A DNA stretch of 64,000 nucleotides from Promethearchaeia archaeon (GCA_029856155.1 JAHQWL010000102.1:1-64000), one strand, 5' to 3'. Counted from the first letter of the stretch, positions 16,778 through 41,431 are shown. The notes: generated by a model not told the origin, from the sequence alone. Numbers and translations: made by a program.

Positions 16778-17003
16778 CTTTAAAGCAGTCTTATTTGAAT
16801 TCATTCTTATAAAGATTATATATATTTTTATATTAAAATATTTCTAGGATCTTGAGTCATATTTTATTAATCCAATAGAATATAGAAGATAAGGCTAAGA
16901 TTTAATTCTTTTGCGATAACTCGTTTTTAGAAAATAGTACAAATTGTTAAATATATCCTTTTATTTCATTTTTTAGTGCTTCATTTAAAATAATACTAAT
17001 TAT

Positions 17004-39461: not shown

Positions 39462-40715
39462 ATGGTAAAAATATTTGAAGGATTAAGGATCCTTGATTGC
39501 TCACTCTTCAAAACAAGCATTTCGCATTAAGGGGTAAAATTTATCTCGGGTCCATGGACAAGTACATTTTTTGCTGACCAAGGGGCAGAAGTAATAAAGG
39601 TAGAAATTTGAATGCAATTCGCATCCTATACTATAACCCCCACCCTTTGGGGAAGCATTTCGTCTTTTTATTCTTTATGATAAGCCTACATTTCCGTTAT
39701 TTTCTATTTTAAATAGAGGTAAGAAATCTATTTCACTCGATTTAAGAAAAGAAAAAGCAACAGAGATATTTAAAAGGTTAGTAGAAAAATCTGATGTCCT
39801 CATAGAAAATTTTGTTCAGGGGACAATGGAAAAATGGGGATTTGGATACGATACATTAAAGAGATTAACCCTAGGTTGATATACGCAAAAATTTCTGGTT
39901 ATGGAAATGATGGATTGGAAAAATATACTCAGAAAACAGCTTTTGATATAATAATTCAAGCTGAAGCTGGAATTCTCGATGCATTGGGTTTTAAGGAAGG
40001 TCCACCAAAATTACCTATAGCAGATTATACTGCAGGACATATTGCTGCAATCGGGATTAGTCAAGCACTCTATTATAGAGAAAAAACAGGGAAAGGACAA
40101 TTTATCGATATCTCAATGCATGATATAATGTTTTCTATAAATATTAGAGCTCAAGCGAAAGAATTTATTCCAAGAGCTCAACATATCGATGTGGCATCAA
40201 AATATCTACCAGTTTATAATCAATATCATTGCAAAGATGGATTAATTGTATTAACTACTTTAACAGAAAAACAATGGATTCGTCTCTGTGAGAATGTGCT
40301 AAGAAAGCCAGAACTAATAAAAGACACTCGTTTCGATAATGTTATAAAAAGATTTGATTATGTTGAGGTATTGGATAAGATTATTGAAGATTGGAGCATA
40401 AGATTCACTCGTGATGAAGCAATTAAACAATTAGAAGCAGTGAGAATCCCATGTGGTAAAACTTATCGAATAGATGAGGTATATAACCATCCAAATCTTA
40501 AAGAAAGAGGAATGCTATGTGATCAATTTGATTTCTCTAAATGGGGTGTTGAAAAAGCTACGATCCCTAATCGTTTGATAAATTTTTCTGATACTAAGGG
40601 CTCGGTTGAGAGTTCAGGACCTGAATTTGGAGCAAATAATGAGGAAATTTATTGTGATTTACTCGGTTATAATAAAGAAGACCTTAAAAGTTGGAGGCAA
40701 CAAAAGTTAATATAA
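39462..40715 (+). CDS. Family III (CaiB/BaiF) CoA-transferase split by two BHB introns, with a 1-nt deletion near 39858-39860
   Basis: Exons 39462-39504, 39538-39605, 39637-40715 give MVKIFEGLRILDCSQFISGPW...ADQGAEVIKVEPPPFGE...NRGKKSISLDL...DVLIENF...; catalytic-region AFDIIIQAEAG; 396 aa once the missing A is restored. Confidence 0.8.
39505..39537 (+). other. 33-nt BHB intron 1 of the CoA-transferase
   Basis: Central helix GCUC/GGGU, bulges AC^U and AA^A, inner helix CUU/AAG; contains an in-frame TAA; splicing gives DCSQFISGP. Confidence 0.75.
39606..39636 (+). other. 31-nt BHB intron 2 of the CoA-transferase
   Basis: Central helix GUAG/CUAU, bulges AA^A and AA^C, internal AUGC/GCAU hairpin; splicing removes a stop and a frameshift and gives IKVEPP. 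Confidence 0.75.
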
Positions 40716-40785
40716 TATAGTATATGGATTTTAATATTTAAAAAAATTATTTAAAATAATTAAAATTAAAATGGTGTATTTGTAA

Positions 40786-41082
40786 ATGAGTAAAGAAGGA
40801 GAAAAAAAAGAAAATTTCATTGAAAATTTGAATAAACAATTTACTGATTTCGTTGGAAGTGTTTTTGGTGAATCTGGAAAAGATTTTATAGAAGAAACTT
40901 CTGAAAAAATAAAAGAATTCAGTTCTGGTGCTATCGAAAAATTTATGGAATTTAGTGATGATGTAATTGAGAAACTCAACTTAAATGAAAATGAACAAGT
41001 AATTAAAGCTCGAGATAGCGTAGAAGATTTGTTAAAACAAGCAGGAATCTTAAAAGAAAGCGATGAAGAAGAGGAGTTTTAA
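40786..41082 (+). CDS. Small acidic helical hypothetical protein
   Basis: 98-aa ORF with plausible start and composition. Confidence 0.65.
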   Translation: MSKEGEKKENFIENLNKQFTDFVGSVFGESGKDFIEETSEKIKEFSSGAIEKFMEFSDDVIEKLNLNENEQVIKARDSVEDLLKQAGILKESDEEEEF

Positions 41083-41158
41083 TTCGTAATTTAGAATTTA
41101 GGATTTAAATTTTTATTATTTCTTTATTTATTTTAATGGCGAATATTTAGAAAAAAAA

Positions 41159-41431
41159 TCATAATACCTTAGCATTCTTTAAAAAAGATTTAACTTCTTC
41201 TTGAGTTGCATTAAATAATTCTGAAATTACCATTAAAGATGTATTTTCATCCATACCCAAATTAGTATAATCTTGATATAATTTTATCCAAGTCTCTTTT
41301 TGGGTATATTTATCTGGATGTTCTGTTTGAATATGTTGCCAATATGGGTGTTGTTAAGCCGTGAAAAATAATTTTTTTCACGATAGCTCAATACCACAAA
41401 AAGGGCAAAACCTTGACTCATCTTCACTCAT
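41159..41431 (-). CDS. 80-aa C2H2-type zinc-finger protein, intron-containing (missed by the ORF track)
   Basis: Exon 1 41431-41384 MSEDESRFCPFCGIEL; exon 2 41353-41159 QHPYWQHIQTEHPDKY...FLKNAKVL*; CxxC...HxxxxH finger forms only after splicing. Confidence 0.8.
41354..41383 (-). other. 30-nt BHB intron in the zinc-finger gene
   Basis: Outer helix GGUAUU/AACACC, central helix GAGC/GCUU, bulges UA^U and AA^C, 9-bp inner stem CGUGAAAAA/UUUUUCACG; two in-frame stops. Confidence 0.85.

What the first reader, a model, noticed from the sequence alone, without database searches (positions are those of the whole stretch)
39462..41431. tRNA-type (bulge-helix-bulge) introns in protein-coding genes: three in two neighbouring genes
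Seen: three 30-33 nt insertions break two otherwise coherent genes. Each folds into the archaeal BHB motif (4-bp central helix, two 3-nt bulges on opposite strands). Cutting after the second nucleotide of each bulge rebuilds the frame and the family motif: DCS-Q-FISGP, IKVE-PP, and CPFCGIEL-QHPYWQH. All three end in UAA, lie near the 5' end of the gene, and carry in-frame stops. Established: archaeal EndA cleaves BHB motifs and RtcB ligates them, mainly in tRNA/rRNA; cbf5 of some Crenarchaeota is the classic mRNA example. Inference: this Asgard lineage splices ordinary mRNAs using the tRNA machinery, and such genes are being mis-annotated as fragments or pseudogenes. Three cases within 2 kb suggest many more genome-wide.
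Basis: partly seen in the sequence, partly recalled or inferred. Interest (0 to 1): 0.97.

Follow-up and report, generated by a model that had tools for sequence, protein, structure and literature searches.

The report
tRNA-type introns inside Asgard protein genes
Two neighbouring protein genes of this Asgard (Promethearchaeota) archaeon are broken by three 30-33-base inserts shaped like tRNA introns, and comparison with some 50 related genomes shows that such inserts are common, conserved and almost certainly cut out of the messenger RNA, something published so far for essentially one archaeal protein gene.

Summary
Observation confirmed; interpretation supported, but not shown at the RNA level.

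The three inserts are at 39505-39537, 39606-39636 and 41354-41383 (minus strand). Related species carry the same genes without them, and the gaps fall exactly at the cut sites predicted by the bulge-helix-bulge (BHB) rule.

- Intron 2 is kept in 20 of 40 orthologues. Compensatory changes occur, including between a synonymous exon site and the intron.
- The 32 codons upstream of intron 2 evolve at dN/dS 0.08, the same as in intron-less species, so they are translated.
- Intron 3 is a near-canonical hBHBh' motif found only in this genome among 30 orthologues read.

Comparing half of a complete relative's genome with this one found five more such introns: cdhA (two), an fwdB-like gene, AMP phosphorylase and TFS. 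The single-copy uL11 gene has two. Across the genus, cdhA alone has at least seven intron positions.

The genome encodes a two-subunit EndA and RtcB.

Caveats:
- No RNA data could be obtained.
- Introns 1 and 2 are relaxed motifs.
- A loose BHB motif alone is very common in this AT-rich DNA.
- The CoA-transferase of this genome also has a 1-base frameshift.

Earlier notes of this scan report the same phenomenon on other Asgard DNA. I found no paper describing it.

The parts
39462..39504 (+). CoA-transferase (family III) exon 1, 43 nt, ATG at 39462; ends with the first base of a split Gln codon
   Evidence: N-terminus conserved in 40 orthologues
39505..39537 (+). Intron 1 (33 nt, phase 1). Central helix 39499-39502 (exon) with 39532-39535 (intron). 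Bulges at 39503-39505 and 39536-39538. 3-bp inner helix 39506-08/39529-31. In-frame TAA at 39528-30.
   Evidence: absent from many orthologues exactly at this junction; present (33-35 nt) in 5 of the 40 public relatives at codon 14, with a separate insert one codon downstream in 3 more; relaxed BHB with a weak outer helix
39538..39605 (+). CoA-transferase exon 2 (68 nt)
   Evidence: dN/dS 0.08 in intron-bearing lineages
39606..39636 (+). Intron 2 (31 nt, phase 0). Central helix 39600-39603 with 39631-39634. Bulges at 39604-06 and 39635-37. Inner hairpin 39610-15/39621-26. TGA at 39609-11.
   Evidence: present in 20 of 40 orthologues; central helix 94% paired, hairpin 86% paired, with compensatory changes
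39637..40715 (+). CoA-transferase exon 3 to the stop codon (PF02515). Its frame is broken in this genome by the loss of one A near 39848-39852.
   Evidence: orthologues have one more A
41384..41431 (-). Zinc-finger-like gene exon 1 (16 codons, ATG at 41431; holds the CxxC pair)
41354..41383 (-). Intron 3 (30 nt, phase 0), near-canonical hBHBh'. Central helix 41389-41386 with 41359-41356. Bulges at 41385-83 and 41355-53. 9-bp inner stem 41382-74/41368-60. Outer helix 41391-90/41352-51.
   Evidence: absent at exactly this junction from the 29 other orthologues read
41159..41353 (-). Zinc-finger-like gene exon 2 (64 codons plus stop; holds the His pair); no Pfam match
   Evidence: found in 48 of 54 genomes of the genus at 67-92% identity

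Best explanation
The three inserts are archaeal bulge-helix-bulge (BHB) introns inside protein-coding transcripts.

Proposed mechanism: in the pre-mRNA, four exon bases just upstream of each 5' splice site pair with four bases near the 3' end of the intron. This leaves a 3-nt bulge on each strand. The two-subunit splicing endonuclease EndA cuts after the second base of each bulge. RtcB then joins the exons and probably circularises the 30-33-nt intron. Only the joined message encodes the full CoA-transferase and the 80-aa zinc-finger-like protein. Stops inside the introns end translation of unspliced copies early.

Shown here: the motif, its coincidence with orthologue-defined boundaries, covariation, purifying selection on upstream exons, and the presence of the enzymes.

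Inferred: the cleavage and ligation themselves, and who performs them.

The introns are gained and lost within the genus. I3 is specific to this genome, I2 is old, and I1 and I2 share an 11-nt core, which suggests local copying.
For: **Boundaries.**
- Intron-less orthologues join the exons exactly at the predicted cuts for all three inserts.
- At I1 the cut is unambiguous and rebuilds the conserved Gln codon.

**Motif against chance.**
- I tested 78 intron instances in six genes at boundaries defined by orthologues (not independent events: about 16 intron positions).
- 45 have all four central pairs, against 3.3% at wrong offsets.

**Covariation.**
- I2 in 21 sequences: central helix 94% paired. 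One exon GUA-to-GUG synonymous change is matched by U-to-C in the intron. The hairpin shows double changes at 5 of 6 pairs. Slid controls are 19-50% paired.
- The AMP-phosphorylase intron of the same genome, in 20 relatives: central helix 100% paired. U-A changes to C-G in 6 sequences, between synonymous exon sites and the intron. The inner stem is 97% paired. Slid controls are 31-49%.

**Selection.**
- dN/dS of the 32 codons upstream of I2 is 0.08 in intron bearers, 0.078 in intron-less species, and 0.06 downstream.

**Generality.**
- I aligned 1014 orthologue pairs against 48% of a complete relative. This found 8 clean ORF-breaking 29-33-nt inserts in this genome but only 3 clean frameshifts.
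- Genes hit include cdhA (two introns around a 21-nt micro-exon) and TFS.
- The single-copy uL11 gene, found by a separate search, has two introns around a 21-nt micro-exon.

**Machinery.**
- Two EndA paralogues are present. One has the Tyr/His/Lys triad and the other lacks the His.
- One RtcB is present.
- Published work assigns Asgard archaea the broad-specificity (alpha-beta)2 EndA (PMC5829648).

**Not an artefact.**
- The same introns occur in MAGs from many studies.
- The AMP-phosphorylase intron occurs in 9 further metagenome contigs.
Against: - No RNA evidence.
- A scan of metagenome contigs found only unspliced forms of one intron. This is uninformative if those records are DNA.
- I1 and I2 have weak outer and inner helices and ordinary folding energy.
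- Loose BHB motifs are very abundant in this DNA. A motif-plus-ORF-rescue scan of the genome barely beat a mirror-geometry control.
- For two introns elsewhere (TFS, and cdhA codon 44 in a relative), the best 4-bp register predicts a removal 2 nt short of the in-frame one. An in-frame product needs a 3-of-4-bp register or a non-canonical cut.
- The CoA-transferase of this genome has an extra frameshift, so this copy could be a recent pseudogene or carry an assembly error.
Confidence: 0.88

Rival explanations
1. Programmed translational bypassing (ribosome hopping), as in phage T4 gene 60 or the 'byp' elements of Magnusiomyces mitochondria. The insert stays in the mRNA and the ribosome jumps over it.
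For: The inserts are short (29-37 nt) and contain a hairpin. A stop codon often follows the last sense codon directly: I2 reads GAA then AUU UGA, and I3 reads CUA then UCG UGA. Several inserts can sit in one gene, as with byps.
Against: - No matching take-off and landing codons exist for I1, I2 or I3 (read).
- Many inserts split a codon, and the conserved residue is rebuilt only by joining the RNA. Examples are Gln at I1, and Ser and Ile at the uL11 introns.
- Covariation links four exon bases to four intron bases at a fixed distance from both boundaries. The BHB model predicts this; hopping does not.
Confidence: 0.03
2. Decaying genes or assembly artefacts. The inserts are debris in pseudogenes or errors of metagenome assembly, and nothing removes them.
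For: The CoA-transferase of this genome has an additional 1-nt frameshift. The genome is a 104-contig assembly with 5.7% estimated contamination.
Against: - The same inserts recur at the same sites in independent MAGs and metagenome contigs.
- Exons on both sides stay open and evolve at dN/dS 0.06-0.08.
- The affected genes include single-copy uL11, TFS and cdhA.
- Only 3 clean frameshifts were seen in 1014 genes.
Confidence: 0.03
3. The inserts are removed from RNA, but by some other nuclease and ligase, or by a different recognition rule than the canonical EndA BHB rule.
For: - I1, I2 and the fwdB-like intron are relaxed motifs.
- Two introns elsewhere show a 2-nt register problem.
- No enzyme assay is available.
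Against: - The geometry of 4 bp plus two 3-nt bulges, with cuts 2 nt beyond each helix strand, fits unambiguously at I1, at cdhA codon 76 and at the uL11 introns.
- The (alpha-beta)2 type of EndA is the one known to accept relaxed motifs (PMC5829648).
- ARAGORN finds only 23 tRNAs here, 11 of them with introns. This fits a heavy load of BHB introns in tRNA genes, handled by the same enzymes.
Confidence: 0.06

Closest known systems
BHB intron in the cbf5 (pseudouridine synthase) pre-mRNA of Crenarchaeota (Watanabe 2002; Yoshinari 2006; Yokobori 2009, PMC2738675)
   Same: A short BHB intron inside a coding sequence. It is removed by a hetero-oligomeric EndA and gained and lost among related species.
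   Different: cbf5 is one gene with one intron in hyperthermophilic TACK archaea. Here many unrelated genes in a mesophile-type, AT-rich Asgard genus are affected. Often there are two introns per gene, separated by micro-exons of 21-68 nt. One gene (cdhA) has at least 7 alternative positions, and intron load differs greatly between species.
Non-canonical and multiple BHB introns of Asgard tRNA genes (PMC11291895; bioRxiv 10.64898/2026.10.13.758758)
   Same: The same phylum, the same motif, the same presumed enzymes, and repeated independent gains at sites where the exon can supply half of the motif.
   Different: The hosts are mRNAs, so excision must also restore a reading frame. Neither paper reports introns in protein genes.
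EndA-cleaved BHB motif in a 5' UTR of Haloferax volcanii (PMC7714728)
   Same: An mRNA is a substrate of the tRNA splicing endonuclease.
   Different: That site is in an untranslated region, not inside a coding sequence, and is a single case.
HAC1/XBP1 unconventional mRNA splicing in eukaryotes (own knowledge)
   Same: A small intron (26 nt in XBP1) is cut at stem-loops by a protein endonuclease and ligated by the tRNA ligase (RTCB in animals), which changes the reading frame.
   Different: The nuclease there is IRE1, not the tRNA endonuclease. It is a regulated stress switch in one mRNA, not constitutive removal from many genes.
Translational bypass elements (T4 gene 60; Magnusiomyces mitochondrial byps; own knowledge)
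   Same: Short hairpin-bearing inserts with stops, many per genome, that do not abolish gene function.
   Different: They need matched take-off and landing codons and remain in the mRNA. Those features are not met here.

Membership tests
Archaeal BHB (EndA/RtcB-spliced) intron | 4-bp central helix flanked by two 3-nt bulges on opposite strands, each bulge 3' of its helix strand; flanking helices h and h' in the strict form | tested here: met
   all three have the 4-bp helix and both bulges in the right geometry. I3 also has h (2 bp) and h' (9 bp). I1 and I2 are relaxed forms with weak h and h'.
Archaeal BHB (EndA/RtcB-spliced) intron | Cuts after the second base of each bulge give the functional product | tested here: met
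   Intron-less orthologues join the exons at exactly these bonds. The position is unambiguous for I1 and within 1-2 nt of sequence redundancy for I2 and I3.
Archaeal BHB (EndA/RtcB-spliced) intron | Helices maintained by compensatory change | tested here: met
   I2. Sister intron in AMP phosphorylase. I3 is a single sequence and cannot be tested. I1 shows only G-U to G-C changes.
Archaeal BHB (EndA/RtcB-spliced) intron | Genome encodes the splicing endonuclease and the RtcB ligase | tested here: met
   a catalytic and a non-catalytic EndA paralogue, and one RtcB.
Archaeal BHB (EndA/RtcB-spliced) intron | Excision seen in RNA (spliced junction, circular intron) | not testable with these tools
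The metagenome contigs held only unspliced DNA-like forms.
Translational bypass element | Identical or cognate take-off and landing codons flanking the gap; codons not split by the insert | tested here: not met
   No matching codons at I1-I3. I1 splits a codon.
Pseudogene | Relaxed selection and accumulating lesions | tested here: not met
   dN/dS is 0.08 upstream and 0.06 downstream of I2 in bearers. The exception is one extra frameshift, in this genome's copy only.

The most novel reading that the evidence does not exclude
Splicing of messenger RNAs by the tRNA machinery is a routine step of gene expression in this Asgard genus. It affects on the order of ten to tens of genes per genome, including uL11, TFS and cdhA. 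Introns are continually gained, copied next to each other, replaced at the same site and lost. This would make the genus a living prokaryotic example of intron-interrupted protein genes with micro-exons in the closest relatives of eukaryotes.
Probability: 0.8. Interest if true: 0.9.

Novelty: new variant of a known kind. Interest (0 to 1): 0.85.

Why it matters
In the papers I could search, protein-gene introns of the tRNA type are documented in archaea for essentially one coding gene, cbf5. If the reading here is right:

- An Asgard lineage splices many ordinary messages, some for core functions (ribosome, transcription, carbon fixation).
- Gene callers then truncate or split these genes, so proteomes and metabolic reconstructions of Asgard MAGs are systematically wrong at these loci.
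- Translation must wait for, or tolerate, RNA processing in a cell without a nucleus.
- Intron gain, loss and turnover can be followed between closely related species. That is directly relevant to debates on how interrupted genes arose before or during eukaryogenesis.

Tried and rejected
   - A metagenome-contig scan for the spliced AMP-phosphorylase junction found nothing.
   - A gapped pattern found 9 unspliced and 0 spliced forms. This confirms the insert in independent samples but says nothing about RNA.
2. **Homologue search for a cDNA-like full-length product.** Searching 5.8 billion proteins with cdhA exon 3 gave no hit above 93% identity.
3. **Motif-only genome scan.** A 4-bp central helix plus an inner stem of at least 4 bp gave 240,603 hits, against 240,840 for a mirror-geometry control.
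   - After an ORF-rescue filter the counts were 4534 against 4415.
   - Only at inner stems of 8-9 bp or more and 26-38 nt was there a small excess (35 v 24; 16 v 9).
   - A tblastn check of these candidates was too lenient and was dominated by antisense-frame matches.
   - I therefore relied on the homology-based census.
4. **Mobile-repeat idea.** None of the three introns has other copies in the genome. The shared I1/I2 core pattern occurs only 5 times in 4.1 Mb.
5. **Bypassing, pseudogene and artefact readings** were rejected, as set out under the rival explanations.
6. **A 19-nt candidate at window 16976-16994** and several jumps at N- or C-termini in the census look like alignment noise at gene ends and were not counted.

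Full report
**The sequence.**
On the plus strand an ORF starts at ATG 39462. It reads the N-terminus of a family III CoA-transferase and is interrupted twice: at 39505-39537 (33 nt) and at 39606-39636 (31 nt). From 39637 the frame continues into a clear PF02515 match.

On the minus strand an ORF starts at 41431. It reads 16 codons ending in a CxxC motif, is interrupted at 41383-41354 (30 nt), and continues for 64 codons holding two His residues.

Each insert carries a stop in the incoming frame.

This genome has one A fewer than all orthologues in an A-run near 39848-39852, which shifts the CoA-transferase frame.

**Geometry.**
In a real BHB motif each bulge lies 3' of its strand of the central helix. 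The 5' strand of that helix is exon and the 3' strand is intron. I checked this against the canonical tRNA 37/38 case.

With that geometry all three inserts have four pairs at the required place, with the cuts after the second bulge base.
- I3 is close to a textbook hBHBh' motif (9-bp inner stem, fold z = -2.8).
- I1 and I2 are relaxed, with folds no better than shuffles.

A loose BHB definition matches 4272 times on one strand of the window. So the motif by itself proves nothing.

**Independent boundaries.**
The genus holds at least 54 species-level genomes, and the relatives are named Promethearchaeota MAGs.

The CoA-transferase occurs without introns, with I2 only, or with both. In every intron-less copy the exons are joined exactly at the predicted bonds.
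- Among 40 public orthologues, I2 is present in 20.
- An insert at or next to the I1 site is present in 8.

The zinc-finger-like gene is found in 48 of 54 genomes. All 29 other copies I read lack I3, again with the junction at the predicted bond. I3 therefore looks like a recent gain.

I tested 78 intron instances from six genes at orthologue-defined boundaries. All four central pairs form in 45 of them, against 3.3% at wrong offsets. The instances are not independent: they represent about 16 intron positions.

**Covariation and selection.**
- For I2 (alignment A2, 21 sequences) the central helix is 94% paired and the hairpin 86%. Six pairs show changes on both sides. One of these is a synonymous exon change matched by an intron change. 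Slid controls are 19-50% paired.
- The 32 codons upstream of I2 have dN/dS 0.08 in intron bearers. That equals intron-less lineages (0.078) and is close to the downstream region (0.06).

So the small upstream exons are translated as part of the protein.

**The rest of the genome.**
I wrote a protein-to-DNA aligner that allows jumps, and tested it on the window. I then aligned ORFs from 1.6 Mb (48%) of the complete relative G006 (CP070831.1) to this genome.

Among 1014 orthologue pairs there are 8 clean ORF-breaking inserts of 29-33 nt and only 3 clean frameshifts. They are the three window introns plus:
- two in cdhA, around a 21-nt micro-exon;
- one in an fwdB-like molybdopterin enzyme;
- one splitting the KHST|GG motif of AMP phosphorylase;
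- one in TFS.

It has two introns (37 and 36 nt) with perfect central helices around a 21-nt micro-exon. G006 lacks both but has its own canonical 28-nt intron a few codons downstream.

The reverse comparison found only one clean intron in 906 pairs in G006. Intron load therefore differs several-fold between species.

**Across the genus.**
- The AMP-phosphorylase intron is present in 21 species. Its central helix is 100% paired. U-A changes to C-G in six sequences, between synonymous exon sites and the intron. The inner stem is 97% paired.
- cdhA has introns at codons 43, 44, 69, 70, 76, 115 and 170 in different species. At codon 69 two close relatives carry unrelated 32-nt and 29-nt sequences.
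- Public cdhA entries of 687-723 aa are the truncated calls this produces.

**Machinery.**
The genome has two EndA paralogues.
- One has the catalytic Tyr/His/Lys and is most like crenarchaeal catalytic subunits.
- The other lacks the His.

It also has one RtcB. Published analysis assigns Asgard archaea the (alpha-beta)2 EndA with the loop that confers broad substrate range (PMC5829648).

ARAGORN finds only 23 tRNAs in this 97%-complete genome, 11 of them with introns. That fits the heavily interrupted tRNA genes reported for Asgard archaea (PMC11291895).

**Problems and limits.**
- No RNA data.
- For the TFS intron and one cdhA intron of a relative, the best 4-bp register predicts a cut 2 nt away from the in-frame one. 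A register with three of four pairs restores the frame.
- The fwdB-like intron has only three of four central pairs.
- A motif-only genome scan cannot separate signal from noise.
- This genome's CoA-transferase may be a recent pseudogene or carry an assembly error. The introns themselves are conserved in intact orthologues.

**Literature and earlier notes.**
Seven full-text searches found no report of BHB introns in Asgard protein genes. The documented coding-sequence case is cbf5, plus a Haloferax 5' UTR site.

Earlier notes of this scan describe the same thing in other windows of this genome and in other Asgard genomes. One note claims RNA support on other DNA, which I could not check.

**Verdict.**
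- The feature is real.
- It is best explained as EndA/RtcB-type mRNA introns (0.88).
- I class it as a new variant of a known kind and rate its interest high.

Noticed in passing
window 39848-39852: One A fewer than in all orthologues (a run of three A instead of four). This shifts the CoA-transferase frame in this genome only. It could be an assembly error or a recent inactivation.
   Followed up: partly
G000 contig C86, minus strand, about 80367-80398 and 80315-80345 (L240): cdhA (CODH/ACS alpha, about 782 aa) carries two introns (32 and 31 nt) around a 21-nt micro-exon that encodes ICDMCCL. The second is a canonical hBHBh' motif (h 4 bp, h' 9 bp).
   Followed up: yes
G000 contig C44, L244 about 1261-1355: The only uL11 gene has two introns (37 and 36 nt) around a 21-nt micro-exon. 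The complete relative G006 lacks both but has its own 28-nt canonical intron a few codons downstream.
   Followed up: yes
G000 C98 57026-57055; C25 12762-12791; C58 2994-3022; C72 106002-106031: Further 29-30-nt ORF-breaking inserts in AMP phosphorylase (inside KHST|GG), TFS (inside the acidic-loop/zinc-ribbon region), an fwdB-like enzyme (after CPFCG) and a small gene on C72 (central helix ACGU/GCGU).
   Followed up: partly
cdhA codon 69 in G000/G066 versus G005/G042 (L178-L180): Close relatives carry unrelated intron sequences (32 nt versus 29 nt) at exactly the same site. This suggests replacement or repeated gain at a site whose exon can supply half of the motif.
   Followed up: no
TFS intron (L243, L173-L176) and cdhA codon 44 of G044 (L188): The best 4-bp register predicts a removal 2 nt shorter than the in-frame one. 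An in-frame product needs a 3-of-4-bp register or an unusual cut. Cut-site mapping is needed.
   Followed up: partly
window 39517-39527 and 39614-39624: I1 and I2 share an 11-nt core (10 of 11 identical). The pattern occurs only 5 times in the 4.1-Mb genome, which hints that one intron was copied from the other.
   Followed up: partly
whole genome G000: ARAGORN finds only 23 tRNA genes (11 with introns) in a 97%-complete genome, and none in this window. Many tRNA genes are probably hidden by non-canonical introns.
   Followed up: no
public protein records: Many Promethearchaeota cdhA entries are 687-723 aa instead of about 782 aa. At least one comes from a contig where I see an intron (G061 C27), so gene callers truncate these genes.
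   Followed up: partly
window 16976-16994: A 19-nt gap in the spliced alignment near the start of a 220-aa gene. It is probably alignment of a conserved upstream region rather than an intron.
   Followed up: no
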